DNA from: Gammaproteobacteria bacterium
GTDB lineage: Bacteria > Pseudomonadota > Gammaproteobacteria > GCA-001735895
Direction of reading: 5' to 3'
Length of the DNA: 61,522 bases
Assembly (NCBI GenBank): GCA_024686195.1
Contig: JAIBDO010000001.1
Coordinates: forward strand, 1-61,522
A model generated the notes under the pieces. It worked only from the letters and a program-made list of their open reading frames with translations, was not told the DNA's origin and made no database searches. The position numbers and the translations under genes were made by a program. This document shows, in pieces, positions 10,150 through 32,271 of the stretch (position 1 is the stretch's first letter; each line of letters opens with the position of its first letter).

Positions 10150-11037
10150 CTAATCGAAGAGGTCATCGTCCAGGGCCTGCGACAACAGTTCTATTAGCGC
10201 CCTGGCCATGGGTAGTATGGGATTGCCGGATACCCATGCCAGTCCGAGCTGCTGGGTAACGGTCGGATTGACTAATTGTTTGGCGCGTGTGCCCGGCAAT
10301 TCATTGAAGCGTTTTGGAACAATGGTTGCCAGATCTCCAGCCATGACATGAAAGGCCAGTTGGAAAATCGAATTCGATTCGAGTTGTGGTCTTGGTTTGC
10401 ACTCCACGGTGGCAAAGGCCGCGTCTATCATCTGACGTTCGCGCATCGCTGGTGACAGCAGGCAAAGCGGCAGGTTGGCTGCTTCGGCCCAGGTTACCGT
10501 CGGTTGATCGTCCAGCCAGTCGTTATCGGGCAGCAACAGGTGCAAGGGTTCTTCATACAGGGCAAGAGTTTCAAGCCGGGAGTCGGTGAGCTGTTCAAGG
10601 TCGGTGAAACCAACATCCAGCTCGAAGTTTTTCAGCGCAAGTGTCAGCTGATCGATGCCCATAAATTGAATGTCGACCTGCACGACTGGGTATTCCTTCT
10701 GGAACAGACGCGCCACAATCGGCAGCATCGGCGAACTGGTAGGCATTGCGCCGATTCTCAGGCGGCCGTGCAGATTCTTCTTCATGATCGCCAGCTCTTC
10801 GAGCATCGCCGAGCGATCAGATAGCAGTCGCTTCGCCCATTCTACGACACGCAAACCTTCGTTGGTGAATCCCTGGAATTTCTGGTCACGCAGGATGATC
10901 GGAACGCCGAGCTCCTCTTCCAGCTTTTTGATCGCACTGGACAGGCTTGGTTGAGACACGAAGCAACGTTCAGCGGCACGGCTGAAGTGTCCTTCCTGCT
11001 CGAGTGCGATTAAATACTGGAATTGGCGCAGAAACAT
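10150..11037 (-). CDS. LysR-family transcriptional regulator
   Basis: 295 aa with wHTH LRQFQYLIALEQEGHFSRAAERCFVSQPSLSSAIKKLEEELG. Divergent from the TauE/GcvT-like/PanB-like genes. Confidence 0.9.
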   Translation of the reverse strand: MFLRQFQYLIALEQEGHFSRAAERCFVSQPSLSSAIKKLEEELGVPIILRDQKFQGFTNEGLRVVEWAKRLLSDRSAMLEELAIMKKNLHGRLRIGAMPTSSPMLPIVARLFQKEYPVVQVDIQFMGIDQLTLALKNFELDVGFTDLEQLTDSRLETLALYEEPLHLLLPDNDWLDDQPTVTWAEAANLPLCLLSPAMRERQMIDAAFATVECKPRPQLESNSIFQLAFHVMAGDLATIVPKRFNELPGTRAKQLVNPTVTQQLGLAWVSGNPILPMARALIELLSQALDDDLFD

Positions 11038-11143
11038 GATTGCCCTGAGTAATCAGCTAGGTGCCTATGTTACATTAGTTTGTTGCCGGAATGCTGCTGC
11101 TTAGGTGCCGGTTTTTCGAATTTTTTGTCGCGGATGACTGTTG

Positions 11144-11893
11144 ATGTCGATAACCCTGATTTTAATCTGCCTTATTGTCGGTGTGCTGATCGGTGCAGTG
11201 GGTATTGGTGGCGTGCTGCTGGTGCCCTCACTCAACCTGATTGCCGGCATCGATGTGCATGAGGCCGTGCCCGCCTGCACACTCAGTTACCTGGCAACTG
11301 GGGTCATTGGTGTCATCGTCTATGCGCGCCACGGTTCGATACAATGGCCAAAGGTCTTCTGGCTTTGCCTGGGGGCCATACCGGCGGCATTTCTGGGTTC
11401 GATCTCACTGCTCAGTATCCCTTCGATCGTCGTGATGTCCCTGATTGCCTTGCTGATGATCGTTAGCGGTATTGACGCTCTGATCAAAGCTTATCGAAAA
11501 TCCTCTGACGAGCAGCCGAAGCGCCAGTTAAGCCCGTTGCAGTTTATCGTAATCGGTTTTATCACCGGATTCGGCTCGGCCATAACGGGCACGGGTGGCC
11601 CACTAATTCTCGTCCCGCTCATCATCTTTCTCGGCTTGCCTGTTCTCACCGCGATCGGCCTCAGTCAGGCCATTCAGCTGCCGATCGCGGCGTTTGCCAG
11701 TACCGGTAACTGGATGTCCGGAAACCTGAATTTTGAACTGGCCCTGGTGATTGCGGCGGTGTTAGTGGTCGGTTCGTTCGCTGGTGCGCTACTCATACAT
11801 CGGTTGCCGGCCGAACCGATCCGCAAGATGATTGCCTTCCTGCTGGTTTTTGTCGGTGCCGGTATCGGTATCCAGCAGCTATTCCAGCTGTAG
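11144..11893 (+). CDS. TauE/SafE-family (DUF81) membrane exporter, sulfite-exporter type
   Basis: About 249 aa, multi-TM and Gly-rich, with the internal duplication typical of TauE/SafE. The track starts at TTG 11141; ATG is at 11144. Confidence 0.85.
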   Translation: MSITLILICLIVGVLIGAVGIGGVLLVPSLNLIAGIDVHEAVPACTLSYLATGVIGVIVYARHGSIQWPKVFWLCLGAIPAAFLGSISLLSIPSIVVMSLIALLMIVSGIDALIKAYRKSSDEQPKRQLSPLQFIVIGFITGFGSAITGTGGPLILVPLIIFLGLPVLTAIGLSQAIQLPIAAFASTGNWMSGNLNFELALVIAAVLVVGSFAGALLIHRLPAEPIRKMIAFLLVFVGAGIGIQQLFQL

Positions 11894-11904
11894 GTCCTGT
11901 CGCA

Positions 11905-12918
11905 GTGTTATCGCTGGCGGATCTGGTTCGAGACTATGGCGACCCCCATGCAGAGGCAATGTGCTGTCGGCAGGATTGCGCGCTGTTTGATTTTTCCTTC
12001 GTTTACCGGATACGGGTCTCGGGCCGGAATGCGATCGCAAGGATCGAACAGTTCCAGCCACGAACCGTCAGCGATATGTCGATCGGGCAGATACGTTACA
12101 GTGTCAAACGCAACGCACAGGGCAGGGTGCGATCTGATTTGACGCTATGGCGCTACGCTGAGGACGTCTTCGAGATCATGAGCGGCTGTGCCGAAGATGT
12201 AAGCGATCTGCAGGCTCAGGCGGGCGAGGAGTTCATTCTGCAGAACCTGAGTGAGAGTACCGCTATTCTCTCATTGCAGGGGCCGAACACATTGGCACAG
12301 CTAGCCTGCTTCATGGATGTTACCGAGATCAGTACTCTGCCTTATTTTCACTTTGTCAGGGCACAAATTGGCGAACTACCCTGTCTGATCGGGCGCCTGG
12401 GTTACTCTGGTGAAGCAGGATTTGAGATATTGGTAGATCAGTCTGCTAGAGACTGGTTGTGGGATTTGTTGTCCACCAGGTTTCCACCGGCCGGTTTTGC
12501 CGCGATCGATATCCTGCGAATCGAAGCAGGTTTCTTCCTGTTTACCAATGAATGTCGAATTTCTCCGTCGATTGGCGAGCTCGGTTTGTCGGCTCTGCTT
12601 GGGGACAGGAAGGGAAGTCCGGAAATCAAACTGGTTGCCTTCGAAGGGAACTGTCATCACACACCGAATCCGGTCTTGTGGCAACCGACCAGTTCTGAGA
12701 TTCGACGCCCTGATTCCGGGGAGATAATGATCACTTCGGCCTGTTTCAGTCCACTGTTTAATCGCGTGATTGGACTGGGTTTTGTTAAGTTCGGCCAGGC
12801 AAGTGACGCCATTATCGATCCCAAACGCAAATTTTCCGACGTTAAAATTTGCTCGCTTCCACCCTACGACCCGCATAAAACAAGGCCTCGAAAGGCATGG
12901 AAGGCCGACACAAGGTGA
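11905..12918 (+). CDS. GcvT-family (aminomethyltransferase-like) folate-binding protein
   Basis: 337 aa with a GTG start 11 nt after the TauE stop. GcvT-like pattern: ...AEAMCCRQDCALFDFSFVYRIRVSGRNA..., LGYSGEAGFEI, DILRIEAGF. Confidence 0.75.
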   Translation: MLSLADLVRDYGDPHAEAMCCRQDCALFDFSFVYRIRVSGRNAIARIEQFQPRTVSDMSIGQIRYSVKRNAQGRVRSDLTLWRYAEDVFEIMSGCAEDVSDLQAQAGEEFILQNLSESTAILSLQGPNTLAQLACFMDVTEISTLPYFHFVRAQIGELPCLIGRLGYSGEAGFEILVDQSARDWLWDLLSTRFPPAGFAAIDILRIEAGFFLFTNECRISPSIGELGLSALLGDRKGSPEIKLVAFEGNCHHTPNPVLWQPTSSEIRRPDSGEIMITSACFSPLFNRVIGLGFVKFGQASDAIIDPKRKFSDVKICSLPPYDPHKTRPRKAWKADTR

Positions 12919-13033
12919 AAGCTATCACCCGATAAAGAGAAGCTCTTTGACAGTTTTTCACGGCCCGGCTTAGTATCTCCGGGCTGCAAAATTGACTTTT
13001 GCAATAATAAAATCAACCACCCACGAGGGAGTC

Positions 13034-13912
13034 ATGTCAGAAGAAACGCCTAGACGAAAGAAAGTAACGATACGTGAATTGCAGCGCAAGATGCGTGATG
13101 ACGAGCAGATTGTGCAGATGGCGATTTACGATTACAGAAGCGCAGTAATCGCAGATCGGCTGGGTATCGACATTCTATGTGTCTCCGATACGGGCGGAAT
13201 GATTTTATTCGGTCATCAGTCAACCGTCACCGTGAGCTTTGACGAAGTCATGATGATGTCGAAGGCTATTGATCGCGGCAGCAAGTACGGCCTTAGAATG
13301 GTCGATATGCCTTACTGGAGCTTTCATGTCTCGCCCGAGCAAGCGGTAGAAAACGCCGGCAAGTTCGTGCATCAGGCAAATGCTGAAGTGATGAAGTGCG
13401 AAGGCAATCAACACCACGCGAAGAATATTGAAGCCATCGTCAAGGCCGGCATTCCGGTGCAGGGGCATATCGGTATTACGCCCATGCGCATGCCGCAGCT
13501 GGGCGGGTTCATCGCCCAGGGTAAAACCTCAGATCGTGCCAAGGAACTCATTGATGACGCCTGGGCAATGGTAGATGCGGGATGTTTTTCTATCATGTGT
13601 GAAGTTACCACCGAGGAAGTTTGCGAATATCTGGCCGAAACATTGCCGGTGCCGGTGATCAGCCTTGGAGCAGGAAACAAGGCCCACGGTGTGCACATTA
13701 TAACTTCCGATTTATTGCATCTGTATGAAGAACATGTTCCACGGCACTCGAAAATTTATACCGACCTCATTCCAATCATGGAAGACGTTTTTATTCGCTA
13801 CCGCGACGAAGTAAGAGAGCGAGTGTATCCGGGACCCGAACACACGGTCTATATGCCACCTGAAGAGCTAAAGAAATTTGCAGAGGCGATGGACTGGAAG
13901 TCAAAACTGTAA
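13034..13912 (+). CDS. 3-methyl-2-oxobutanoate hydroxymethyltransferase (PanB) family paralog
   Basis: Colinear with my memory of E. coli PanB. Equivalents of the GDSLGM, VKIEGG and LECVP catalytic segments are present (SDTGGM, MKCEGN, MCEVT), with C-terminal VYPGPEH. ATG 13034 follows GAGGGAG; the track gives TTG 12992. Confidence 0.8.
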   Translation: MSEETPRRKKVTIRELQRKMRDDEQIVQMAIYDYRSAVIADRLGIDILCVSDTGGMILFGHQSTVTVSFDEVMMMSKAIDRGSKYGLRMVDMPYWSFHVSPEQAVENAGKFVHQANAEVMKCEGNQHHAKNIEAIVKAGIPVQGHIGITPMRMPQLGGFIAQGKTSDRAKELIDDAWAMVDAGCFSIMCEVTTEEVCEYLAETLPVPVISLGAGNKAHGVHIITSDLLHLYEEHVPRHSKIYTDLIPIMEDVFIRYRDEVRERVYPGPEHTVYMPPEELKKFAEAMDWKSKL

Positions 13913-14040: not shown

Positions 14041-15336
14041 ATGCCAGCCAGAAATCATAAGCAGTGGAGTGCCAAACCCGATCTAGAACTCGGGGAGTGG
14101 GTCGATAGTCGGATTTATTCTGACGAAGAGATATTCGAGGAAGAGCTGGACAAACTCTGGAAAAAATCCTGGATAGCACTTTGCCATGAATCGGAACTCC
14201 CGGAACCCTATGATTTCCGCACCGGGATTATCGCACGTGAGCCGGTTATCATGGTTCGCGGACCGGATAATAAAGTGCGCGCTTTTCTGAACGTTTGTCC
14301 ACACCGTGGAATGACGATTGAGCGCCGGCCCTCTGGCAGCTTCGCGCCGGCTCAGCCGTCAGGTAACCCGAAACACATGACCTGTTTATTCCATGCCTGG
14401 CAGTTTGACATGAAAGGCAACTGTGTTGACATACCGCGCCAGAAAGAGGGCTACCAGGATCGCCTCGACAAATCTTCCCAGGGTCTTCGGGCTTTGCGTT
14501 GTGAAGTCAAATACGGTGGTTTTGTCTGGGTCTGCCTTGATGATCACACGGAGTTTAACGTCGAAACCTGGGCCGCTGGTGCGATGGATTGCATCAAGGA
14601 TTCACTCGATGCCGAGCCGCTCGAACTGATTCACTACCACAAGGCGATCATCGATTGTAATTACAAACTGTGGCACGACACCAATAGTGAGTTCTATCAC
14701 GATTACATGCACTATCACAATCGCATCACCGGCTTCAACGACGACTATTTTCAGCGTGAGTGCTCGGCTTATGACAATGGCCACGTCAATGTTGGCACCT
14801 TCACCGTGAACTATGAAGAGTATGATGTTGCGGAAGATCGCGGCACCCTGTCATTCCCTAATCTACCCCCCGATAACTGGTACATGGTCGACATGTTTCC
14901 GGGATTGAACTTCAACCTGCGTGGTTCCGTGGTGCGCATGGACTTGATGACGCCGCTGAGCGCCAACCAGGTGATGATCGAATTCCGTGGTTTCGGGCTG
15001 AAAAGTGATTCGCCTGAAGATCGTGCGCATCGTATCCAGCATCACAATTCAATCTGGGGCCCACTGGGCCGTAACCTGCATGAAGACCTCATTGGTGTGG
15101 CCGGCCAGGGTACGACAATGACACCTAAATCAGAGCCGCGTCGTATTTTGCACGGTCGTCACGAGGGTGCTTACATACACGACGAAATCGGTATGCGTCA
15201 CTTTTACGAATCATGGGGTAAGAAGATGGACCGGTTGCCCAGTGATCCCGAGCAGAAATACAAAGCCGGCAAGGTAATGGGACCGGAAATGCCGCCCGCG
15301 AAGGGCTTGTCTACTTTCGCTGGCAAAGGTGCTTAA
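14041..15336 (+). CDS. msmA: Rieske non-heme-iron oxygenase alpha subunit, methanesulfonate monooxygenase hydroxylase large subunit-like
   Basis: 431 aa. Rieske ligands are C86-P-H88 and C115-L-F-H118, separated by 26 residues (nt 14296-14394). There is a mononuclear-iron His/Asp region (EFYHDYMHYH). AGGAG lies upstream of the ATG. The symbol rests on the X26 spacer and the operon context. Confidence 0.75.
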   Translation: MPARNHKQWSAKPDLELGEWVDSRIYSDEEIFEEELDKLWKKSWIALCHESELPEPYDFRTGIIAREPVIMVRGPDNKVRAFLNVCPHRGMTIERRPSGSFAPAQPSGNPKHMTCLFHAWQFDMKGNCVDIPRQKEGYQDRLDKSSQGLRALRCEVKYGGFVWVCLDDHTEFNVETWAAGAMDCIKDSLDAEPLELIHYHKAIIDCNYKLWHDTNSEFYHDYMHYHNRITGFNDDYFQRECSAYDNGHVNVGTFTVNYEEYDVAEDRGTLSFPNLPPDNWYMVDMFPGLNFNLRGSVVRMDLMTPLSANQVMIEFRGFGLKSDSPEDRAHRIQHHNSIWGPLGRNLHEDLIGVAGQGTTMTPKSEPRRILHGRHEGAYIHDEIGMRHFYESWGKKMDRLPSDPEQKYKAGKVMGPEMPPAKGLSTFAGKGA

Positions 15337-15485
15337 AGGCGGGTTTGCAGCGGAGAAACTGAACACGGACAACGGGGCAAGAGCTGATGGAGCAACGCCC
15401 TCGTCCAGTGTGATGCCTGCAGCATCGTAAGTTTGATTTAGCAACGCGCCTGCATGGCGTGAGAATATTATTGGAGAAGCTAGGA

Positions 15486-15983
15486 ATGAATGTAGAGGAA
15501 CAGCATATCAAATCGCTGGTCAGGGAAACGATATATGCGGCTGCCATGTTTCTGGACGATCAGAAATGGAATGACTGGATCGATCAGTGCGATGAAAGCT
15601 TCCACTATTCGGTGGTTACCTACAGCCATGAAGTGCGTAAGGATCTGACCTATCTGCTGATGAGCCACAAGGAAATGCATCCCTACTTTGATTTGCTACC
15701 AAAACACAATACGGATCATTCGCCGTTGCGGCGTCATGCCAGCATTTATACGGTAGATGTATCTGAAGACGGTAAAACGGCCGAGGCAGTGACGTCTTTC
15801 ATCATGACCCAGGAAATGATTGATGGCATCAGTGCGCCACTTTATTCAGGCGAAAATCGGTTATACCTGACCGGAAAATATTATGATAAGTTCAAAATTG
15901 ATGGTGAATCAGTGAAATTTACCGAACGGGTTGCACGGGTATACACCCGGCGGTTCGACAAAGGCACTCATTGGGTTTTCTGA
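15486..15983 (+). CDS. msmB: Oxygenase beta (small, NTF2-like) subunit
   Basis: About 165 aa directly after the alpha subunit, with the size and pattern of ring-hydroxylating-dioxygenase beta subunits. ATG 15486 follows GGAG; the track gives GTG 15459. Confidence 0.7.
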   Translation: MNVEEQHIKSLVRETIYAAAMFLDDQKWNDWIDQCDESFHYSVVTYSHEVRKDLTYLLMSHKEMHPYFDLLPKHNTDHSPLRRHASIYTVDVSEDGKTAEAVTSFIMTQEMIDGISAPLYSGENRLYLTGKYYDKFKIDGESVKFTERVARVYTRRFDKGTHWVF

Positions 15984-16093
15984 TTGGCATCTAACCGAAC
16001 TTTAGCCGTCATTGCAGGTTAGGTAAGCTCGAATGGTTGTCGGATGTTTCTCGGCTGCTAGACGAGTCAATAATAAATAACAGGAGTAGAGAG

Positions 16094-16474
16094 TTGAGTT
16101 GGGAAAAAATCTGCGGAGTTTCCGATGTTCCGGAAAACGCTCTGGAAAAGTTTGAAGTAAATGGCATTGAGCTAGTCGTCGCCAATTATGGCGGTGGTTT
16201 CCGTGCCTTTCCCCCGCGCTGTCCACACATGGAAGAAGCGCTTTGCGACTCTGCCGTGTTGTTCGACGGAATGCTGACCTGTACCAAGCACCTTTGGCAG
16301 TGGGATATGGGGTCAGGGGAAAAAACCGGAATAGCCGAAAAGGAGTTGCTGTTTTATGACGTTAAACAGGAAGGTGGCGATCTTTATGCGCAGGTCGACG
16401 AGGCGCTCGTCTATGAAGACGATGACGATGAAGACGAAGACGAAGACGACGAGGATTTTTTCAATGCCGACTAA
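16094..16474 (+). CDS. msmC: Rieske-type [2Fe-2S] ferredoxin with a poly-acidic C-terminal tail
   Basis: CPHMEEALC...(17 aa)...CTKHLWQWD, with the tail YEDDDDEDEDEDDEDFFNAD. I prefer TTG 16094, preceded by AGGAG at 7 nt spacing; the track gives TTG 16037. The start is uncertain. Confidence 0.7.
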   Translation: MSWEKICGVSDVPENALEKFEVNGIELVVANYGGGFRAFPPRCPHMEEALCDSAVLFDGMLTCTKHLWQWDMGSGEKTGIAEKELLFYDVKQEGGDLYAQVDEALVYEDDDDEDEDEDDEDFFNAD

Positions 16475-16628
16475 TGCCCGTGACGCTATCGAAAACGGAA
16501 GTCGGATAAGCATAGCGTCAGAGATGGCGGGTCAATAGAGCATATTATGCGAGTGACACTGGATTTTTTTAGCGGACGTCAAGGCGGGCTTCGGTGGGTC
16601 GCAAATCGACCCTGTGACCTGGATAATC

Positions 16629-17687
16629 ATGATGACCGGTAAAACGTTGAATATCCAGGTTAATGCCAGAAACCGCGCCTATACGCTTGATGGCACCAGT
16701 GATGATAAAATCCTCAACCTTGGCTTGAGTAACGCCATCGACCTCCCCTATGAGTGTGGTAGCGGTACCTGTGGTACCTGTAAAGCACGATTAATATCGG
16801 GAGAGATCTGTGATCGGTGGCCCGAAGCACCCGGGCGCAAGTTCTTGAAGCCTAAGAAAGGTGAGTTCCTGATGTGCCAGTGCGCTGCAAAAACGGATAG
16901 CGTGATCGAAGTAGAAAGTTTTGTGCACACCATGGAGGCCGGTGCCTGTGTACCCGGGTTAATTACTGGCCGAGTCAATAGTTCAAAACTTTTGACCCCG
17001 GATGTGATGTCACTGCAGATAACGATGGATCAGACATTCGATTTCGATGCGGGCCAGTTTATGCTGGTGCAGTTCCCCGAAGTAGTGGGTTTTCGTGGTT
17101 GGTCGATGGTGAATTATGAGCGTCATGCAAAAACCCTGGATTTTGTCATAAAGAAAAAACCTGACGGAGTACTGTCCGAATGGCTGTTTGGTAACAATTG
17201 TGAAGGTGTGGAAGTTGAACTCTACGGGCCATTGGGAAATGCCACCTTTTATTCGAGACTGGCCAAAAACATTCTTTGCATCGCCGGTGGTAGCGGCATT
17301 GCAGGCATCATGTCCATTCTTTCGAGGGCGGCACAGGACGGCTATTTCTCGCAGTATAGCGGGGATGTGTTTTTCGGTGTGCGCACCATGAAAGACGCAT
17401 TCTTTCTCGATGAACTAGCGGCTTTCCGCGCCGAGTGTGGTGAAAAACTGAATATCGTGATCGCTCTATCAGATGAAGACGTCCCCGCCTCTGCGCAGAT
17501 CGATTATCCGCAACTGGCGTTTGACAATGGGTTTGTTCACGAGGTGGCCGGTCGCCATATGGAAGATCGCTATCAGAATGTGAGAGCCTATCTTGCCGGC
17601 CCCCCACCTTTGGTGAATGGCTCGATAGGTATGCTACTGCGGGCGCGAGTGACTACCGATAATATCCGCTATGACAAGTTCAGTTAA
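16629..17687 (+). CDS. msmD: Oxygenase reductase: plant-type [2Fe-2S] ferredoxin domain fused to an FAD/NAD(P)H ferredoxin-reductase domain
   Basis: N-terminal CGSGTCGTCK...C cluster, followed by an FNR-like fold (RGWSMVNY, GGSGIAGIMS). ATG 16629; the track gives GTG 16614. Confidence 0.8.
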   Translation: MMTGKTLNIQVNARNRAYTLDGTSDDKILNLGLSNAIDLPYECGSGTCGTCKARLISGEICDRWPEAPGRKFLKPKKGEFLMCQCAAKTDSVIEVESFVHTMEAGACVPGLITGRVNSSKLLTPDVMSLQITMDQTFDFDAGQFMLVQFPEVVGFRGWSMVNYERHAKTLDFVIKKKPDGVLSEWLFGNNCEGVEVELYGPLGNATFYSRLAKNILCIAGGSGIAGIMSILSRAAQDGYFSQYSGDVFFGVRTMKDAFFLDELAAFRAECGEKLNIVIALSDEDVPASAQIDYPQLAFDNGFVHEVAGRHMEDRYQNVRAYLAGPPPLVNGSIGMLLRARVTTDNIRYDKFS

Positions 17688-17697
17688 GAGTGTCGTC

Positions 17698-18429
17698 ATG
17701 AGCAAGAATATACACATATGTAAGCTGAGTGATATTCCCGCCAACGGAATCAAGGATTTCGTGCTTGAGGGCGGCGAAAAAGTGCTTATCGCTAACTTCA
17801 GCGAGAATTATTATGCCTATAACGGAAATTGCCCTCATCAGGGTACATGCCTTGCCGAAGGTTTTTTCGACGGTGCGGTACTGACCTGTAACAAACATTT
17901 ATGGCAGTGGGATATCACCACCGGAAAGCCCATCGGCCTTGCCGAAGCCCCACTGGAAAGCTATCAGCTCGAGATTGAAGACGGCGAGATATATGTTCGC
18001 AAGGCCAATGCGTTGAAGATGGCCGAGTTATTCAGGGATATTTCAACTAGCACGCAGGACTTGCTGGTGAAACTCACCCGGCGAGAAGAATATGAAGTTG
18101 GTAGCGTTCTATACGATCTGGGTGATCTGACAGACGATCTCTACATTCTCGAATCGGGTCGGGTCGAGTTCGAACTTGGTCGAGACGAACGTACCAGTGC
18201 GGCCGGGTTTATCTTGCGTAAAGGCGAGGTTTTCGGATGGGCCGCACTACTTGAGCATCAACCGATACGTATCGCCCAGGCTGTTTGTGTGGAAAAATCG
18301 GTTCTGTTGCGTCTCAATGGCGAGGAAGTTGTTAAGGTATTAGCAACCGATCCGGCTTCTGGCTACCTGGTCATGCGCCAGTTAGCTACTTTGATCACCA
18401 GGCACTTCACCTCGTCGAGCGAGCAATGA
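17698..18429 (+). CDS. Rieske [2Fe-2S] ferredoxin (MsmC paralog) fused to a C-terminal cyclic-nucleotide-binding-like domain
   Basis: The N-terminal about 105 aa align with the preceding ferredoxin (CPHQGTCL...LTCNKHLWQWD). The C-terminal about 130 aa have the Crp/cNMP beta-roll pattern (VLYDLGDLTDDLYILESGRVEF...RKGEVFGWAALLEHQPIRIAQAVCVEKSVLLRL). ATG 17698 lies just after the reductase stop. Confidence 0.8.
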   Translation: MSKNIHICKLSDIPANGIKDFVLEGGEKVLIANFSENYYAYNGNCPHQGTCLAEGFFDGAVLTCNKHLWQWDITTGKPIGLAEAPLESYQLEIEDGEIYVRKANALKMAELFRDISTSTQDLLVKLTRREEYEVGSVLYDLGDLTDDLYILESGRVEFELGRDERTSAAGFILRKGEVFGWAALLEHQPIRIAQAVCVEKSVLLRLNGEEVVKVLATDPASGYLVMRQLATLITRHFTSSSEQ

Positions 18430-18600
18430 TGAGAGGAGAGCGGCGATTAATAACCGAGTATGAATAACTGAGGATGATTGCAACTCAATGTAAGGAGGTC
18501 ATGATTAAAAAGTAAGGCACCAATCTTTAACCATAAAAAGTTGTTTAGCGCGTTTAGACAATTGACAATTTTAATAATCGAAAATAGTGAGGAGTTATAA

Positions 18601-19755
18601 ATGTTATCTAAATTAAAAAGTATCCAACATCGGGTCACTACCGGTTTCGCTGCGTTGATTGTAGCGTTAGGCCTTACGGCGCCCGGATTAGTGTCCACCG
18701 CATCTGCCGCTGAAATTGATTTTGGCAAGGTCGGAGATCCGATCAATCTTGTTGTAGGTTATCAGCCATATTACACAGAAGCCTGGTCCGGTGTGGTCAT
18801 GAAGAGCCTGAAGCTGTACGAAAAGTACTTGCCGAAAGGGTCGACTGTTGAATTTCAGATTGGCCTGCAAGGCGGTATTATCGTTAACGCCATGCTCGCA
18901 GGAAAGCAACACATCGGCTACATGGGTGACATGCCGGCCATCGTCGCCACCACCAAGGATCGCGTAGCTGACATTCGTATCGTTGCGACCGCAGGTCTTG
19001 GTTTTGATCAGTGCAATAACATGCTGGTCAGAAATGATGCACCGCAGTTTGCCAATGCCGGCGAAGCCATCCAGTGGATGGATGGGAAGGTCGTAGCAGT
19101 ACCGAAAGGCGCCTGTACTGACCGCTTTGCACTGGCTGTTTTCGAGAAAGAAAACATCAAGCCGGCCAGCTACCTGAACCAGAACATCGAAGTAATCACC
19201 AGTGGCTTCCGCGCTGGCAAGCTCGATGCGGCTGCGATCTGGGAACCAACGGCATCACGTCTGGTTGAGGAAGGACTGGCACGTAAAGTTGCTTCTGGCG
19301 CCTCGGTTGATGAGAATGATGGTGGTTTTATCGACATGCGTGGTGACCTGATTGACCAACGTCCCGACGTTGTCAAAGCCTGGCTGAATGCCGAACTCGA
19401 CGCGCAATTGTTCATGGCTGATCCCAAAAACACCATGGCAATCGTGAAGATGGCTGAAGAGCAAACCACTGGCTTCGAATCCAAGGTGCTTTGGAAAGCT
19501 ATGGTTGGTACCACACCGGTACTCCAGGGCGGCACACCGGTTCGAAATGAACTGGCTTTTGCTATTACCCCGAAGGCCCAGGCGCTGATCGACAAAGCAA
19601 CTGTCTTTCTGCACTCCATCAAGACGATCAAAGTGGATACCCTGCGTGACAACGCGATCGAGCGTAGCTTCACCGAAGAAATCCTGAAGGAGCGTGGTCT
19701 GTCAGCACCCGTTGGCAAGATGTGGGCTCAGCCAGATTCTGCTTACGGTATGTAG
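18601..19755 (+). CDS. ABC transporter periplasmic substrate-binding protein, NitT/TauT (NMT1/SsuA-like) family; msmE-like
   Basis: 384 aa with a signal peptide ending ...STASA-AE. GAGGAG precedes the ATG. Sits beside cognate permease and ATPase genes. Confidence 0.85.
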   Translation: MLSKLKSIQHRVTTGFAALIVALGLTAPGLVSTASAAEIDFGKVGDPINLVVGYQPYYTEAWSGVVMKSLKLYEKYLPKGSTVEFQIGLQGGIIVNAMLAGKQHIGYMGDMPAIVATTKDRVADIRIVATAGLGFDQCNNMLVRNDAPQFANAGEAIQWMDGKVVAVPKGACTDRFALAVFEKENIKPASYLNQNIEVITSGFRAGKLDAAAIWEPTASRLVEEGLARKVASGASVDENDGGFIDMRGDLIDQRPDVVKAWLNAELDAQLFMADPKNTMAIVKMAEEQTTGFESKVLWKAMVGTTPVLQGGTPVRNELAFAITPKAQALIDKATVFLHSIKTIKVDTLRDNAIERSFTEEILKERGLSAPVGKMWAQPDSAYGM

Positions 19756-19788
19756 TGCCTGACATAACTTTGTTAGTTCTGTAGAGGA

Positions 19789-19820
19789 CCCCCCGACAGG
19801 AAAATGTCCCGGTCGGGGGG
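19789..19820 (+). promoter_or_regulatory. Strong intra-operon RNA hairpin after the binding-protein gene
   Basis: CCCCCCGAC-(14 nt)-GTCGGGGGG, a 9-bp G/C stem with no downstream T-tract. Confidence 0.5.
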
Positions 19821-19933
19821 CCATCTCTACGCATAGAGCAACAGTTAGTAAATAAATGTAGTTATACCTGGGTGTGCATTCGGCATGGTTGTGCGTGTGC
19901 AGGATACCCGGAACATAAATAGAGGAAGCAGGT

Positions 19934-21286
19934 ATGCCTGACCCGGCAAACAATTCGGAAATTCTAAGCGCCTTGAAAAGCGCGATGCCCTTTCAGATGG
20001 TACCCGGTAATCTGATGCAGGAGATTGCTGCAATCTGTACGCAGGAATCATATGAAGCAGGTGAGAAAATATATGACCTGGGCGCGGTAGCAGACGATGT
20101 TTTCATCGTCGCTTACGGAAGCGTGCGACATACCCTGTCGGCGGATACAGACGCGAGCAAGCATGAGAAAACCATGCGCAGCGGTGATGTTTTCGGCTGG
20201 GCCGCTGTTCTTGAAGGTCAGAGTGTACGTATGGCGGCGACTGCCAGCATCGAGCGTACCCTGGTGCTACGCATCAACGGCAAAAAACTGATCAAATTGT
20301 TTGAGAGCGATCCCGCGGTCGGTGACGTTGTCATGACGCGATTCGCGACCTTGATTAATAAAGAATTCTACGTGCCCAGATCGATTGCCGATCAGGTGCC
20401 GGGCTTCAAGCAAGCCCTCAATGCAAGCAATCTTCAGGGCTCTGAAGTGACCACCATGGCGTTAACCGTCTATCGGATTTCGACCTGGCTGAAAAGCCCG
20501 CGACCGTACCTGATGTTGATCGGTTTTGCACTGTTCCTCAGCTTCTGGATGCTGTCGGTCGAGATTTGGAAATTACCGCGCTTTGTCGATATGCCTGGGC
20601 CGACCGAGGTGTTTACCGAGTGGTTCAGCGAAGATCCCTATTACGGTCTGTCGATCTACACCCCCGAGTATTACAAGCACATTGGCATAAGCCTGCAACG
20701 TATTGCCTTCGCCTTCTTTCTGGCGACTGGGCTGGGTGTGCCACTGGGGCTGTTCCTCGGTTGGTCGAAGAAATTCCGTGAATATATTTTCCCCCTGTTC
20801 GAGGTGTTTCGGCCAATTCCGGTTCTCGCCTGGGTACCACTGGCGATTATCATGTTCAGTGGCTCTGAAACTCCGGTTATTTTCCTGACTTTCCTGGCCT
20901 CATTCTTCGCTACAACGCTGAACACCATGCTGGGCGTAGAATCGATCGACGAGTCCTACAGTCGGGCTGCTCGATGTCTGGGTGCCAGTCGCTGGCAGAC
21001 ATTCGTTCATGTGGTGATCCCCGGCGCTATGCCCTACATTTTTACCGGCCTGCAAATATCCATCGGTGTCGCCTGGTTCTCGCTGGTGGCGGGAGAGATG
21101 GTGTCCGGTCAGTACGGCCTGGGATATGTCATTAACACCGCCTACATGATGATCGAATATCCGAAAATTATCATCGGCATGATCACCCTTGGCGTAGTCG
21201 GCTACATCACCAGCGCCATGGTGCGCATGATGGGTGATTACCTCATGCAGTGGCGGGTGCGTGAACTGGCCCTCGGAGATAACTAA
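19934..21286 (+). CDS. ABC transporter permease (NitT/TauT family) with an N-terminal cyclic-nucleotide-binding-like domain
   Basis: 450 aa. Residues about 12-145 have the cNMP/Crp-like beta-roll (EKIYDLGAVADDVFIVAYGSVRH...SGDVFGWAAVLEGQSVRMAATASIERTLVLRI). The remainder is a 6-TM BPD_transp_1-type permease. Confidence 0.85.
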   Translation: MPDPANNSEILSALKSAMPFQMVPGNLMQEIAAICTQESYEAGEKIYDLGAVADDVFIVAYGSVRHTLSADTDASKHEKTMRSGDVFGWAAVLEGQSVRMAATASIERTLVLRINGKKLIKLFESDPAVGDVVMTRFATLINKEFYVPRSIADQVPGFKQALNASNLQGSEVTTMALTVYRISTWLKSPRPYLMLIGFALFLSFWMLSVEIWKLPRFVDMPGPTEVFTEWFSEDPYYGLSIYTPEYYKHIGISLQRIAFAFFLATGLGVPLGLFLGWSKKFREYIFPLFEVFRPIPVLAWVPLAIIMFSGSETPVIFLTFLASFFATTLNTMLGVESIDESYSRAARCLGASRWQTFVHVVIPGAMPYIFTGLQISIGVAWFSLVAGEMVSGQYGLGYVINTAYMMIEYPKIIIGMITLGVVGYITSAMVRMMGDYLMQWRVRELALGDN

Positions 21287-22149
21287 TGAGTGCAGTAATA
21301 GATGAAAATTTAGGTTCGCTGGCGGACGTCACCGACGGCGCAATCAGCATTAAGGATGTGGTCAAAATATACGACCCGGATGGGGCCGCGGTGATGGCGG
21401 TCGACCATTGTTCGATCGAAATTCCAGCTGGGGAAATCTGTATGATCGTCGGCCCGTCGGGTTGCGGCAAGACAACCCTGCTGAATGCCATTGCCGGTTT
21501 CCACGGCATCACTTCCGGCAGTATCCACCTCGATGGCGAACTGTTGTGCGGCCCTGAAAAGCCACAGGCAGAGCCCGGTTCTGATCGCATTGTAGTGTTC
21601 CAGAACGGCGCACTATTCCCCTGGAAGACCAATCTCGACAACGTTGCTTTCGGGCCGATGATGGCTGGTAAGCTGAGCAAGGAGGAAATCTACGATAAGG
21701 CGCGCAGCATGATGGCAGACGCGGGCCTGAGCGGCAACGAGAACAACTATCCGGGCGAAATATCCTCGGGCTTGCGGCGTCGGGTCGAAATAGTCCGCGC
21801 ACTCATGAACGATCCCAAAGTATTGCTATTCGATGAGCCTTATCGCGCGCTTGATTCTCTCACCAAGTCGGTTATGCATGAAGCCTTGCTGGAAATCTAC
21901 TATCGCAACAAGGTCACGATTTTCTTTATAACTCACGATCTCGAAGAGGCGATCTTCCTTGGCCACCGGTTGATCATCATGTCTTCCCGACCCTGTAAGC
22001 CAAAGAAAATTGTAGAAGTGGATATACCCCATCCACGCGATTACAGCGTGCTGACTTCTCCCCGTTTTCGGGAGCTTATGAACGAAGCCAAAGACGTCGT
22101 GCATGAGGAGGCTACCAAAGCCTTCGAAGCCGGCGAAAAAGAAGGATAG
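21286..22149 (+). CDS. ABC transporter ATP-binding protein (NitT/TauT family)
   Basis: Walker A GPSGCGKTT, signature ISSGLRRR, Walker B LLFDEP. Its start shares 1 nt with the permease stop. Confidence 0.9.
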   Translation: MSAVIDENLGSLADVTDGAISIKDVVKIYDPDGAAVMAVDHCSIEIPAGEICMIVGPSGCGKTTLLNAIAGFHGITSGSIHLDGELLCGPEKPQAEPGSDRIVVFQNGALFPWKTNLDNVAFGPMMAGKLSKEEIYDKARSMMADAGLSGNENNYPGEISSGLRRRVEIVRALMNDPKVLLFDEPYRALDSLTKSVMHEALLEIYYRNKVTIFFITHDLEEAIFLGHRLIIMSSRPCKPKKIVEVDIPHPRDYSVLTSPRFRELMNEAKDVVHEEATKAFEAGEKEG

Positions 22150-22156
22150 AACAGAG

Positions 22157-22981
22157 ATGAGTGTAAGCAATTTTTCAGACAAGCTGTTCAGTAAGGCAGC
22201 GATGCGTGGCATCTTCGCGATCGTCGTTTTCGTGCTGATATGGGAAGTCGGTGCTCGTTCCGAGCAATGGTTTGGTTATCGTTTCCCGTTTATTGGATTG
22301 GTACCCCCGCCCACCGATGTATTCGTCAGCTGGGGAGGATTGATTGCGGATCCCAGTTACTGGCAAAGCTGGTACATGAGTTTCCTGCGTGTTTTCGGAG
22401 GATTCGCGGCGGCCATGGTCATCGGAATCCCGATGGGTTTGCTAATGGCGGTCAATAAAGCCAGTTACGGCATCATTTTTCCGTCTTTTGAAGTGCTGCG
22501 TCCTATTCCACCGCTAGCCTGGGTGCCGGCGTCGATCATCTTCTGGCCTACCCAGGAATTGTCGATTGCCTTCGTCACTTTCCTCGGCGCGTTTTACACC
22601 ATTGTTATCAATGTGCTGGGTGGCGCTAAATCGATCAACAAGCAGTTTTTGCAGGCCGCGCAATCTATGGGAGCGTCACAGTGGGACATCTTCCGTCGCA
22701 TCGTTCTCCCTGCAACATTGCCATCGATTGTGGTTGGTTCTGCAGTTGGTATGGGAATTACCTGGGAGGTTGTGGTCGCCGCAGAAATGATCTCGGGTGG
22801 TGGCAGCTCCGGTGGTGGTGCCGGTGGCGGGCTCGGATTTTTTATCTGGAGCTCTTATGTGGGTGGATCCTACGAACAGATCATTGTCGGCATGATCAGT
22901 ATCGGCATCGCCGGTTATATAAGCAGCGAGCTATTGCGGCAACTCGGTGGTTTGCTAACTCCCTGGCTGAAAACACGGTAA
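22157..22981 (+). CDS. ABC transporter permease (NitT/TauT family), second membrane subunit
   Basis: Permease fold with a Gly-rich insertion EMISGGGSSGGGAGGGLGFF. I use ATG 22157 (MSVSNFSDK...). The track start at 22103 would overlap the ATPase gene by 47 nt. Confidence 0.85.
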   Translation: MSVSNFSDKLFSKAAMRGIFAIVVFVLIWEVGARSEQWFGYRFPFIGLVPPPTDVFVSWGGLIADPSYWQSWYMSFLRVFGGFAAAMVIGIPMGLLMAVNKASYGIIFPSFEVLRPIPPLAWVPASIIFWPTQELSIAFVTFLGAFYTIVINVLGGAKSINKQFLQAAQSMGASQWDIFRRIVLPATLPSIVVGSAVGMGITWEVVVAAEMISGGGSSGGGAGGGLGFFIWSSYVGGSYEQIIVGMISIGIAGYISSELLRQLGGLLTPWLKTR

Positions 22982-22986
22982 CCCAG

Positions 22987-31301: not shown

Positions 31302-31606
31302 TGACGCTGGCGCCGAAATTCAAGCAAGGTGACCCGGTGCAGGTATGCGCACGCGATGTCGCGCATCACCGTCGCACGCCATCCTATGTGCAGGGACGAC
31401 GTGGATACATCGAACGTTTTTGCGGTGCTTTCGCAAATCCCGAACTACTCGCACAGGGCCGGGACGGGTTGCCGCTGATCAATCTGTATCGTGTTCGCTT
31501 CGAGCAGGCTGAGCTGTGGACAACAGCAGAGGTAGATGCCGGCGATGATAGCGTCGATGTTGAAATTTATGAACACTGGTTGAGGCAATGCGATGAACCA
31601 TTCTGA
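31301..31606 (+). CDS. Nitrile hydratase family, C-terminal (SH3-like) half of the beta subunit as a separate polypeptide
   Basis: 101 aa: FKQGDPVQV...HHRRTPSYVQGRRGYIERF...NLYRVRFEQAELW...VDVEIYEHWL, which matches the NHase beta C-domain pattern. Confidence 0.85.
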   Translation: MTLAPKFKQGDPVQVCARDVAHHRRTPSYVQGRRGYIERFCGAFANPELLAQGRDGLPLINLYRVRFEQAELWTTAEVDAGDDSVDVEIYEHWLRQCDEPF

Positions 31607-32261: not shown

Positions 32262-32271
32262 GTCGAACTGG

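What the first reader, a model, noticed from the sequence alone, without database searches (positions are those of the whole stretch)
19934..21286. ABC importer permease with an N-terminal cytoplasmic cNMP-binding-like domain
Residues ~12-145 form a cNMP/Crp-type domain (MQEIAAICTQESYEAGEKIYDLGAVADDVFIVAYGSVRH...SGDVFGWAAVLEGQSVRMAATASIERTLVLRINGKKLIKLFESDPAVGDVVMTRFATLI). It is joined directly to a six-helix NitT/TauT-type permease.

Regulatory domains on ABC importers are normally C-terminal extensions of the ATPase. A sensor domain on the membrane subunit is unusual. This one is also a paralog of the domain on the neighbouring ferredoxin. That points to trans-inhibition or activation of import by an intracellular metabolite.
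Basis: seen in the sequence. Interest (0 to 1): 0.75.

Follow-up and report, generated by a model that had tools for sequence, protein, structure and literature searches.

The report
Sensor domain on methanesulfonate importer permease
One membrane subunit of a bacterial methanesulfonate uptake pump carries an extra cytoplasmic sensor-like domain; close copies sit on the pathway's electron carrier and, in relatives, beside its sulfite exporter, which suggests an uncharacterised post-translational switch for the whole pathway.

Summary
ORF 19934-21286 (450 aa) is one continuous, well-conserved gene. It has a cyclic-nucleotide-binding (CNB)-fold domain (res ~10-148), a ~25-residue linker, and a six-helix NitT/TauT-type ABC permease. 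The domain is cytoplasmic, under purifying selection, and 38% identical to the C-terminal domain of the neighbouring Rieske ferredoxin.

Context identifies the transporter as the MsmEFGH-type methanesulfonate (MSA) importer. It lies next to an MsmABCD-type monooxygenase whose alpha subunit has the diagnostic CxH-x26-CxxH motif. Plain orthologues (283-284 aa, 82-83% identical) lack the domain, so it is an accessory graft.

The fused form occurs in about 220 species-representative genomes, almost always with the Rieske-CNB ferredoxin. In most Betaproteobacteria that ferredoxin is the only one in the locus. A third, stand-alone paralogue sits beside the sulfite exporter TauE in many relatives.

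All three paralogues share a non-canonical cassette, FGW...R-[LIM]-A instead of FGE...R-[ST]-A. cAMP or cGMP is therefore unlikely; a small pathway anion (MSA or sulfite) is my inference.

Allosteric gating of import is plausible, with a precedent in NrtBCD/CmpBCD, but it is untested. I found no literature on these fusions. Verdict: a new variant of a known kind, of moderate to high interest.

The parts
19934..21286 (+). cNMP-fold domain + MsmF-type ABC importer permease (450 aa), the finding itself
   Evidence: ORF; SD and ATG; PF00027 + PF00528; conserved as one ORF in >=119 clusters and ~220 genomes
19961..20377 (+). CNB-like sensor domain, residues 10-148 (alphaA, eight-strand barrel, PBC helix, alphaB/alphaC)
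   Evidence: Pfam 38-126; phmmer to PKG CNB-B 1.6e-9; AF2 pLDDT 70-86 with CNB secondary structure; Foldseek TM 0.77-0.83 to CNB domains; Ka/Ks 0.085
20192..20236 (+). Non-canonical phosphate-binding cassette, F87-G88-W89-A90 ... R99-M100-A101
   Evidence: W replaces the ribose-binding Glu and M replaces the Ser/Thr in the alignment to PKG; F87, G88, W89, R99 and A101 are invariant or nearly so in 80 permease-fused, 68 Rieske-fused and 22 stand-alone paralogues
20378..20449 (+). Flexible linker, residues 149-172
   Evidence: pLDDT 30-48; low conservation; the distance from the end of the C-helix motif to the juxtamembrane motif varies from 35 to 50 residues across the family; plain MsmF orthologues start at its end
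20450..21283 (+). MsmF permease core: juxtamembrane helix (173-192, LTxYRxSxWLKSPRPYLM), six TM helices, EAA loop 334-368
   Evidence: 82-83% identical to plain 283-284-aa permeases of canonical msm loci L088/L089; hydropathy; Foldseek to NrtB/CmpB
17671..18429 (+). Rieske [2Fe-2S] ferredoxin fused to a paralogous FGW-type CNB-like domain ('X'); the true start is probably ATG 17698 (243 aa, as in homologues)
   Evidence: PF00355 res 14-91 + PF00027 res 139-227; CxH-x16-CxxH; 38% identical to the permease's domain; present in 67 of 69 loci with a fused permease
18601..19755 (+). Periplasmic substrate-binding protein, MsmE-like (SsuA/NMT1 family)
   Evidence: PF13379, TIGR01728 SsuA_fam; 74-89% identical to the SBPs of x26 msm loci
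19789..19820 (+). G+C-rich intercistronic hairpin between the SBP and permease genes (no U-tract)
   Evidence: Sequence; RNA fold of the 178-nt spacer -66 kcal/mol, z -3.8; not called as a terminator
21286..22149 (+). ABC ATPase 1 (MsmG-like); start overlaps the permease stop
   Evidence: PF00005; 79-95% identical across all loci
22103..22981 (+). Second permease (MsmH-like), no sensor domain; likely true start ~22157 (274 aa)
   Evidence: PF00528; 36% identical to the core of the fused permease; homologues are 272-275 aa
22990..23874 (+). ABC ATPase 2
   Evidence: PF00005, 124.5 bits; conserved last gene of the cluster
14041..15336 (+). Methanesulfonate monooxygenase hydroxylase alpha subunit (MsmA-type) with CxH-x26-CxxH
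   Evidence: Spacer of 26; signature per PMC4433239; 97% identical to a protein JGI names 'methanesulfonate monooxygenase large subunit'
15459..17687 (+). MsmB-like beta subunit (15459-15983), stand-alone Rieske ferredoxin MsmC-like (16037-16474), NADH reductase MsmD-like (16614-17687)
   Evidence: Pfam; same order as in canonical msm loci
10150..13912 (.). Pathway accessory genes: LysR regulator (10150-11037, minus strand), TauE sulfite exporter (11141-11893), GCV_T folate-binding protein (11905-12918), PanB (12992-13912)
   Evidence: Pfam; the same genes accompany msm-like clusters elsewhere

Best explanation
The gene encodes the MsmF-type permease of a methanesulfonate (MSA) ABC importer: SBP, two different permeases and two different ATPases.

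A ~165-residue cytoplasmic module has been grafted onto its N-terminus. The module has the cyclic-nucleotide-binding fold, but its binding cassette is rewired to FGW...R-[LIM]-A. I propose that it binds a small anionic metabolite of this pathway rather than cAMP or cGMP. MSA itself or its product sulfite are the best candidates.

Ligand occupancy would change how the tethered domain docks on the cytoplasmic face of the transporter, probably on the ATPase pair. That would switch import on or off. This would resemble the single regulatory domain of NrtBCD/CmpBCD, which locks or releases the two ATPases.

Paralogous copies of the module sit on the ferredoxin that feeds electrons to the monooxygenase and, in relatives, next to the sulfite exporter TauE. 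Uptake, oxidation and product export could then all respond to the same intracellular signal, independently of transcription.

**Shown:** architecture, topology, orthology to plain MsmF, pathway assignment by signature and context, conservation of the cassette, and co-occurrence of the modules.

**Inferred:** that a ligand binds, which ligand it is, and how and in which direction transport is affected.
For: **1. Real, translated fusion.**
- One ORF with a good SD.
- Conserved in about 220 genomes.
- Domain Ka/Ks 0.085.

**2. Accessory graft on an ordinary permease.**
- Plain MsmF in x26 msm loci L088/L089 is 82-83% identical. It starts at window residue ~166-173, directly before the conserved juxtamembrane helix.
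- Filomicrobium MsmF is 888 bp (PMC4433239).

**3. Pathway assignment.**
- The alpha subunit has CxH-x26-CxxH, the accepted MsmA signature (PMC4433239; PMC7143210).
- It is 97% identical to a JGI-named MsmA.
- Gene order is msmABCD-EFGH-like, and TauE, GCV_T and PanB lie upstream.

**4. Cytoplasmic location.** Six TM helices with the EAA loop between TM4 and TM5.

**5. CNB fold.** Pfam, phmmer, AF2 and Foldseek agree.

**6. The pocket is conserved but non-canonical.**
- F87, G88, W89, A90, R99 and A101 are invariant or nearly so in the 80 permease-fused and 68 Rieske-fused sequences. All but A90 (77%) are also conserved in the 22 stand-alone sequences. The paralogue families are only 22-35% identical overall.
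- W replaces the ribose-binding Glu, and M/L/I replaces the Ser/Thr.
- The retained Arg is the anion-binding residue of the cassette.

**7. The subfamily is pathway-dedicated.**
- The best profile hits are Rieske fusions and stand-alone proteins.
- All 3 stand-alone members examined on long contigs lie in PanB-S-TauE-GCV_T next to the same transporter cluster.
- 20 loci show S-TauE adjacency.

**8. The modules occur independently.** There are fused permeases without X (L008, L009) and S with a plain permease (L092). This fits separate sensors of one signal.

**9. No DNA-binding domain.** None is attached to any of the three forms, so their action must be post-translational.

**10. Precedent in the same transporter family.** A single regulatory domain per asymmetric NrtBCD/CmpBCD complex senses intracellular nitrate and locks the ATPases.
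Against: - No ligand-binding or transport data exist, and none can be produced here.
- The full-length AF2 model is poor (mean pLDDT 61.6, pTM 0.40). Nothing can be said about where the domain docks.
- The invariant Arg and Trp could be structural rather than ligand-contacting.
- No solved structure carries an FGW cassette to guide ligand assignment.
- The beta5 region, which contacts the base in PKG, differs between the permease-fused form and the other two. The three paralogues might therefore not share one ligand.
- Most fused permeases accompany an x17-spacer oxygenase whose substrate is unproven.
- The window lacks the stand-alone paralogue. The three-point control model is drawn from relatives.
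Confidence: 0.5

Rival explanations
1. The two CNB-like domains are protein-protein docking modules. The permease's domain would pair with the ferredoxin's domain (CRP-like dimer through the C-helices). This would tether the electron carrier, and with it the monooxygenase, to the importer so that imported MSA is oxidised at the membrane.
For: - 67 of 69 loci with a fused permease also encode the Rieske-CNB ferredoxin.
- The transporter has only one such domain per heteromeric complex, since the second permease lacks it. That leaves the domain without a partner.
- The C-helix is strongly conserved: G130, D131, M134, R136, F137, A138, T139, I141.
- Variants with two tandem domains exist.
Against: - The fused permease occurs without the fused ferredoxin in L008 and L009.
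- The stand-alone paralogue occurs with a plain permease in L092.
- Tandem-domain permeases still keep the fused ferredoxin.
- A mirror-tree test gave no specific co-evolution. Fdom-Xdom r was 0.79, within the 0.42-0.87 range of all operon pairs, and the partial r of 0.20 equalled the control.
- A pure docking role does not explain the invariant Arg/Trp cassette shared by all three paralogues.
Confidence: 0.2
2. The domain is a genuine cAMP or cGMP receptor. It would place MSA import, and the ferredoxin, under second-messenger control, for example carbon-status signalling.
For: - Pfam cNMP_binding scores above threshold.
- The nearest solved relatives are cGMP- and cAMP-binding domains.
- The phosphate-binding Arg is retained.
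Against: - The Glu that binds the ribose 2'-OH is an invariant Trp. The Ser/Thr after the Arg is Met, Leu or Ile in all three paralogue families.
- Among the 150 nearest representatives, the FGW type (40) and the canonical xGE...R[ST]A type (38) form separate groups.
- In every context examined, the FGW subfamily is confined to this one pathway cluster. That is not expected for a global second-messenger receptor.
Confidence: 0.12
3. The domain no longer senses anything. It would be a structural or assembly appendage, for example one that stabilises the F/H heterodimer or aids membrane insertion, retained after an ancient fusion.
For: - Plain orthologues evidently work without it.
- The domain evolves about three times faster than the permease core (Ka/Ks 0.085 vs 0.032).
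- The cassette is non-canonical.
Against: - Purifying selection is still strong.
- Identical pocket residues are conserved across three architectures that diverged to 22-35% identity.
- The module has been recruited separately to a ferredoxin and to the exporter operon.
- It has been duplicated in tandem.
Confidence: 0.08

Closest known systems
MsmEFGH methanesulfonate ABC importer with MsmABCD monooxygenase (Methylosulfonomonas methylovora, Filomicrobium, Ca. Puniceispirillum; PMC4433239, PMC5068391)
   Same: - Same gene set and order: alpha, beta, Rieske ferredoxin, reductase; SBP, permease, ATPase, permease (plus a second ATPase, as in Filomicrobium).
- The alpha subunit carries the CxH-x26-CxxH signature.
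- TauE is nearby.
- The permease core is 82-83% identical to plain permeases of x26 msm loci.
   Different: - Described MsmF proteins are ~285-295 aa with no N-terminal domain. Here ~165 residues of CNB-like sensor plus linker are added.
- An extra Rieske ferredoxin carries the same kind of domain.
- None of the msm papers read mentions either.
NrtBCD / CmpBCD (cyanobacterial nitrate and bicarbonate importers, NitT/TauT family; PDB 8wm7, 8wm8, 9u9z; PMC10945777, PMC13287603)
   Same: - Same permease fold (Foldseek TM 0.64-0.72).
- Two different ATPases.
- One regulatory domain per complex, which senses an intracellular small anion and locks or releases the ATPase pair. This is the best mechanistic precedent.
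   Different: - Their regulatory domain is an SBP-like module fused to the C-terminus of one ATPase. Here it is a CNB-fold module at the N-terminus of one permease.
- The ATPases here have no extra domain.
Trans-inhibited type I ABC importers MetNI, ModBC and MalFGK2-EIIAGlc (my own knowledge of the field)
   Same: A cytoplasmic regulatory element responds to an intracellular signal and prevents closure of the ATPase dimer.
   Different: In all of these the element is a C-terminal domain of the ATPase and acts as a symmetric pair. It is neither a single domain on the membrane subunit nor a CNB fold.
Canonical CNB domains (PKG CNB-B, PKA R subunits, CRP/GlxR, HCN/CNG/MloK1 channels)
   Same: Same fold, including the PBC helix and alphaB/alphaC. 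MloK1 and HCN/CNG are examples of a CNB domain tethered to a membrane transport protein.
   Different: - The cassette is FGW...R-[LIM]-A instead of FGE...R-[ST]-A.
- There is no DNA-binding or kinase-inhibitory partner.
- The host is an ABC importer permease, and the domain is N-terminal.
CRP/FNR-family effector domains that bind non-nucleotide ligands (NtcA/2-oxoglutarate, CooA/haem, CprK/chlorophenolacetate, FNR/[4Fe-4S]; my own knowledge)
   Same: These show that the CNB/CRP effector fold has repeatedly been re-tuned to other small molecules, including anions.
   Different: Those are transcription factors with an HTH domain. The three forms here have none. No sulfonate- or sulfite-binding member is known to me.

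Membership tests
Cyclic nucleotide-binding domain (Pfam PF00027 / CNB fold) | Sequence match above the curated threshold | tested here: met
   39.0 bits vs gathering score 27.5, res 38-126. Tandem-domain relatives score 100-111 bits.
Cyclic nucleotide-binding domain (Pfam PF00027 / CNB fold) | Eight-strand beta-barrel with PBC helix, flanked by alphaA and alphaB/alphaC | tested here: met
   AF2 secondary structure with pLDDT 70-86 in the domain. Foldseek to PKG CNB-B, 3mdp, PfPKA-R and MloK1: target TM 0.73-0.83, rmsd 2.2-4.3 A.
Functional cAMP/cGMP receptors | Phosphate-binding cassette F-G-E-x(8-10)-R-[ST]-A (Glu to ribose 2'-OH, Arg and Ser/Thr to phosphate) | tested here: not met
   Glu is replaced by W89 and Thr by M100; only R99 is kept. 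The FGW...R-[LIM]-A form is conserved in 80 + 68 + 22 paralogues.
Functional cAMP/cGMP receptors | Measured binding of cAMP or cGMP | not testable with these tools
   Needs ITC or DSF on purified protein.
Type I ABC importer permease, NitT/TauT family | BPD_transp_1 domain with EAA loop, about six TM helices, N- and C-termini inside | tested here: met
   PF00528 at 99.4 bits. Six hydrophobic segments and the EAA loop at 334-368. Foldseek to NrtB/CmpB. Best NCBIfam hits are SaoP, NtrB, TauC and SsuC, all below their equivalog cut-offs.
Type I ABC importer permease, NitT/TauT family | Operon partners: periplasmic SBP and ABC ATPase(s) | tested here: met
   SsuA-family SBP at 18601-19755, ATPases at 21286-22149 and 22990-23874, second permease at 22103-22981.
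MsmF (methanesulfonate importer permease) | Encoded with msmE/G/H next to msmABCD whose alpha subunit has CxH-x26-CxxH | tested here: met
   Spacer of 26. The signature is described in PMC4433239 and PMC7143210. Alpha is 97% identical to a JGI-named MsmA. Gene order is as published.
MsmF (methanesulfonate importer permease) | Orthology to permeases of recognised msm loci | tested here: met
   82-83% identical over residues 166/173-450 to the plain permeases of x26 loci L088 and L089. Direct comparison with the M. methylovora protein was not possible, because the sequence is not held and PMC1352215 is unavailable.
MsmF (methanesulfonate importer permease) | Demonstrated MSA transport | not testable with these tools
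   Needs uptake assays.
Trans-inhibited ABC importers (MetNI/ModBC/MalK type; NrtC/CmpC CRD type) | Regulatory domain fused to the C-terminus of the ATPase | tested here: not met
   Both ATPases (287 and 294 aa) show only the ABC_tran domain. The extra domain is on the permease.
CRP/FNR transcription factors | C-terminal helix-turn-helix DNA-binding domain | tested here: not met
   No HTH domain in the permease fusion, the Rieske fusion or the stand-alone paralogues. FtrB/FixK/CRP NCBIfam hits cover only the effector domain and lie far below cut-off.

The most novel reading that the evidence does not exclude
The FGW-type CNB-like domain is a new ligand class of the cyclic-nucleotide-binding fold: a sensor of methanesulfonate or sulfite. 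Evolution has attached it to three successive steps of one pathway: the importer permease, the ferredoxin that feeds the monooxygenase, and a partner of the sulfite exporter TauE. This would give transcription-independent, three-point control of a pathway whose products, sulfite and formaldehyde, are toxic. It would also be the first ABC importer gated through a sensor carried by its membrane subunit, and the first ferredoxin whose electron delivery is gated by a metabolite-sensing domain.
Probability: 0.3. Interest if true: 0.8.

Novelty: new variant of a known kind. Interest (0 to 1): 0.6.

Why it matters
**Pathway.** MSA is a major atmospheric oxidation product of dimethylsulfide. Its bacterial breakdown returns sulfur and C1 carbon to the cycle. 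How cells protect themselves from the sulfite and formaldehyde this releases is unknown.

**ABC transporters.** A dedicated sensor module wired to uptake, electron supply and product export would be a compact example of post-translational pathway control. Known regulatory domains of ABC importers sit on the ATPase. A sensor on the permease would add a new regulatory layout.

**Cyclic-nucleotide signalling.** A conserved Trp-for-Glu cassette confined to one metabolic pathway offers a clean case of re-tuning the CNB fold to a non-nucleotide ligand.

**Testability.** Cultured carriers make this directly testable: Thiobacillus thioparus DSM 505, T. denitrificans DSM 12475 and Glaciimonas immobilis. 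Natural controls exist in plain orthologues at 82-83% identity.

Tried and rejected
1. **Wrong start or separate frame: rejected.**
   - The ORF is continuous with a good SD.
   - The domain is under purifying selection.
   - The fusion is conserved in about 220 genomes.
   - An internal Met175 aligns with the start of plain MsmF, but no convincing SD precedes it. I do not propose a short isoform.
2. **Full-length AF2 with a 70-sequence family alignment.** Mean pLDDT was 61.6 and the TM region was poor. It was usable only for fold assignment of the domain and a coarse match of the permease. The tool returns no coordinates or PAE, so it gives no information on domain docking.
3. **Mirror-tree and partial-correlation test for co-evolution of the permease's and ferredoxin's domains.** No signal above the operon background: inconclusive.
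4. **Search for a solved structure with an FGW cassette, to infer the ligand.** None appeared among the aligned best PDB matches; all were FGE.
5. **Literature searches.**
   - 'methanesulfonate monooxygenase' plus 'cyclic nucleotide' returned nothing.
   - 'cyclic nucleotide-binding domain' plus Rieske, ferredoxin and fusion returned nothing.
   - cNMP-binding, ABC permease and sulfonate returned nothing relevant.
   - The original msmEFGH paper (PMC1352215) is not held.
6. **Other FGW-type domains in the window.** Only the two are present.
7. **Terminator between the SBP and permease genes.** There is a hairpin but no U-tract, and it was not called as a terminator.
Full report

- The window has a 450-aa ORF at 19934-21286 (+). 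AGAGGAAG lies 5 nt before the ATG. The stop overlaps the start of the next ATPase gene by one base.
- Pfam finds cNMP_binding at residues 38-126 (39.0 bits, cutoff 27.5) and BPD_transp_1 at 268-431 (99.4 bits).
- Hydropathy gives six membrane segments: 193-211, 257-275, 291-309, 315-333, 369-387 and 412-430. The EAA loop (334-368) contacts the ATPase in this class of importer, and it lies between TM4 and TM5. The first 192 residues are therefore cytoplasmic.
- The domain is 38% identical over 134 residues (E 1e-33) to the C-terminal half of the Rieske ferredoxin ORF 17671-18429. That ORF has PF00355 plus PF00027.
- An AF2 model built from 70 family members is poor overall (mean pLDDT 61.6). 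The N-terminal domain scores 70-86, with the expected alphaA / beta-barrel / PBC helix / alphaB-alphaC order.
- Foldseek matches the N-terminal part to PKG CNB-B, a Geobacter CNB protein and related domains (target TM 0.77-0.83). It matches the C-terminal part to the NitT/TauT permeases NrtB and CmpB (TM 0.64-0.72).
One correction: the join is not direct. It runs through a variable ~25-residue linker and a conserved juxtamembrane helix.

**2. Is it a gene-calling artefact?** No.

- The 120 best database relatives (61-94% identity) all carry both Pfam domains, except one 317-aa fragment.
- A scan of one genome per species found 220 genomes encoding the fused protein. Cultured carriers include Thiobacillus denitrificans DSM 12475, T. 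thioparus DSM 505, Glaciimonas immobilis and Imbroritus primus.
- Against the closest relative (L007), Ka/Ks is 0.085 for the domain and 0.032 for the permease core.

**3. What system is this?**

- The ten genes from 14041 to 23874 are: Rieske oxygenase alpha and beta, a Rieske ferredoxin, an NADH reductase, the Rieske-CNB ferredoxin, an SsuA-family binding protein, the fused permease, an ATPase, a second permease and a second ATPase.
- The alpha subunit has CxH-x26-CxxH, while the two ferredoxins have x17 and x16. The 26-residue spacer is the published signature of the MSA monooxygenase hydroxylase MsmA. msmABCD plus msmEFGH is the published gene set (PMC4433239; PMC7143210; PMC5068391).
- The alpha subunit is 97% identical to a protein JGI names 'methanesulfonate monooxygenase large subunit'. 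It is 63-72% identical to a large family that includes methylotroph sequences.
- A LysR regulator, the sulfite exporter TauE, a folate-binding GCV_T protein and PanB lie directly upstream. This fits MSA being converted to sulfite plus formaldehyde.

**4. The domain is an accessory graft.**

- Two loci with x26 alpha subunits have the same gene order but a plain permease of 283-284 aa and no Rieske-CNB gene. They are a Ca. Njordibacter-type contig (L088) and Cocleimonas (L089), whose alpha is 80% identical to the window's.
- These permeases are 82-83% identical to window residues 166/173-450. They begin just before the conserved helix LTxYRxSxWLKSP[KR]PYLM.
- The published Filomicrobium MsmF is likewise only 888 bp.
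- The window protein is therefore an ordinary MsmF plus about 165 N-terminal residues.

**5. Co-occurrence.** I annotated all fetched loci. Among 72 non-redundant loci that cover the reductase-to-permease stretch:

| Permease | Rieske-CNB ferredoxin (X) | Stand-alone ferredoxin | Loci |
|---|---|---|---|
| fused | present | absent | 64 |
| fused | present | present | 3, plus the window |
| fused | absent | present | 2 (L008, L009; verified by tblastn) |
| plain | absent | present | 2 (L088, L089) |
| split into two ORFs | present | absent | 1 (L091) |

- In most carriers, mainly Burkholderiales and other Betaproteobacteria, the CNB-fused ferredoxin is the only ferredoxin in the locus. It therefore probably serves the oxygenase.
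- In those loci the alpha subunit is only ~50% identical to the window's and has an x17 spacer. PMC4433239 notes that such x17 'MsmA' proteins are not from proven MSA utilisers. Even so, the transporter proteins remain 58-88% identical to the window's.

**6. A third paralogue.**

- Many betaproteobacterial loci hold a stand-alone 142-167-aa protein of the same subfamily.
- A profile of the three forms retrieved mostly such proteins plus Rieske fusions.
- All three that I examined on long contigs lie in the arrangement PanB - S - TauE - GCV_T beside the same transporter cluster.
- 20 loci show S directly adjacent to and co-directional with TauE.
- The window has no S.
- L092 has S with a plain permease. 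Some permeases carry two tandem copies, both FGW-type.

**7. The binding cassette.**

- In the alignment to PKG CNB-B, the Glu that binds the ribose 2'-OH is W89. The Thr after the phosphate-binding Arg is M100. The Arg itself (R99) is kept.
- Across 80 permease-fused, 68 Rieske-fused and 22 stand-alone sequences, F20, Y47, G50, G62, G84, F87, G88, W89, R99, A101, G130, M134 and I141 are conserved in all three groups. These groups are only 22-35% identical overall.
- H66 is specific to the permease form, and the beta5 residues differ between forms.
- Among the 150 nearest cluster representatives in a 1.8-billion-protein library, 40 carry FGW...R-x-A and 38 carry the canonical xGE...R[ST]A.
- The best PDB matches shown residue by residue all have FGE.
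- The domain keeps a pocket under selection, but not one suited to a cyclic nucleotide.

**8. Most likely mechanism.**

- Shown: a cytoplasmic, selected, accessory CNB-fold domain with a conserved but rewired anion-binding cassette. It is tethered by a flexible linker to one of two different permeases of an MSA importer. Paralogues sit on the pathway's ferredoxin and beside its sulfite exporter. No DNA-binding domain is attached anywhere.
- Inferred: the domain binds a small anionic pathway metabolite. MSA or sulfite would be well suited to an Arg plus the helix N-terminus plus aromatic residues. Ligand state would alter docking on the ATPase pair and so gate import.
- The same transporter family supplies a proven precedent. 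NrtBCD and CmpBCD have two different ATPases and a single regulatory domain. That domain locks the ATPases and is released by intracellular nitrate or stabilised by PII (PMC10945777, PMC13287603). There the domain is SBP-like and sits on the ATPase.
- Whether ligand inhibits or activates cannot be decided here.

**9. Rivals.**

- *Docking between the permease's and the ferredoxin's domains.* The 67/69 co-occurrence and the conserved C-helix favour it. Counter-evidence: the exceptions (L008, L009, L092), tandem variants that still keep the fused ferredoxin, the absence of specific co-evolution, and the shared pocket.
- *A true cNMP receptor.* The cassette and the pathway-restricted distribution disfavour it.
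- *A vestigial appendage.* Selection and repeated recruitment disfavour it.

**10. Novelty and interest.**

- Sequence databases label these proteins automatically as 'ABC transporter permease subunit', 'cyclic nucleotide-binding domain-containing protein' or 'CRP-like cAMP-binding'.
- I found no paper that describes the fusion, the fused ferredoxin or the FGW subfamily.
- It is a new variant of known kinds, namely a regulated ABC importer and a re-tuned CNB domain. It is not a new category.
- The pathway-wide deployment of one sensor module is the most interesting aspect, and it is directly testable in cultured strains.

Noticed in passing
L090 10001-10501, L091 10001-10465, L092 10001-10474; also L032 17850-18314, L048 17957-18421, L073 17831-18295 (not in the window): A stand-alone 142-167-aa FGW-type CNB-like protein is encoded immediately upstream of the sulfite exporter gene TauE and a GCV_T folate-binding gene (PanB-S-TauE-GCV_T), next to the msm-like cluster. 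This suggests a third regulated step, product export.
   Followed up: partly
window 14041-15336 versus alpha subunits in L002-L086: The window, L001, L007-L009 and L011 have the MsmA-type CxH-x26-CxxH motif. About 60 other loci with the fused permease have an x17 spacer and an alpha subunit only ~50% identical. The substrate of that much commoner oxygenase is unproven, although its transporter is 58-88% identical to the window's.
   Followed up: partly
window 16037-16474 and 17671-18429: The window keeps two Rieske ferredoxins. One is a stand-alone MsmC-like protein with a strongly acidic C-terminal tail (DDDDEDEDEDDEDFFNAD). The other is the CNB-fused one. Most relatives have only the fused one. 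Which ferredoxin serves the oxygenase here, and when, is open.
   Followed up: no
P0044 (= L002/L034 10001-11851), P0034, P0042, P0051: Permease variants of 616-625 aa carry two tandem FGW-type domains. The membrane-proximal copy is closer to the window's single domain.
   Followed up: partly
window 19789-19820 (within spacer 19756-19933): A strong G+C-rich hairpin (CCCCCCGAC...GTCGGGGGG) lies between the binding-protein and permease genes, with no U-tract. The spacer folds at -66 kcal/mol (z -3.8). It may be an intercistronic stabiliser that sets the SBP-to-membrane-component expression ratio.
   Followed up: partly
window 17671/17698, 22103/22157, 22681/22990: The longest-ORF starts are probably too far upstream for three genes. 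Homologue lengths suggest that the Rieske-CNB ferredoxin starts at ATG 17698 (243 aa), the second permease near 22157 (274 aa), and the second ATPase at ATG 22990 (294 aa).
   Followed up: partly
window 21286-22149 and homologues in all loci: The first ATPase is unusually conserved: 79-95% identical between Gamma- and Betaproteobacteria. The binding protein is 58-94% identical and the oxygenase alpha subunit 50-96%.
   Followed up: no
L091 16144-17486: The permease is split into a 74-aa ORF and a 373-aa ORF, with only a weak CNB hit. This is probably a frameshift or assembly error in an otherwise fused gene.
   Followed up: no
L003/L004 623-3979 (Thiobacillus sp. 63-78): An SBP56 (methanethiol-oxidase-type) gene with SCO1/SenC and MauG-like genes, plus Fae, lies directly upstream of the msm-like cluster. 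This looks like a C1-organosulfur catabolic island.
   Followed up: no
window 31593-33678: A nitrile hydratase alpha-like gene (PF02979, 267 bits) lies next to a convergently oriented amidase gene (PF01425). It is unrelated to the finding, and I did not look for a beta subunit.
   Followed up: no
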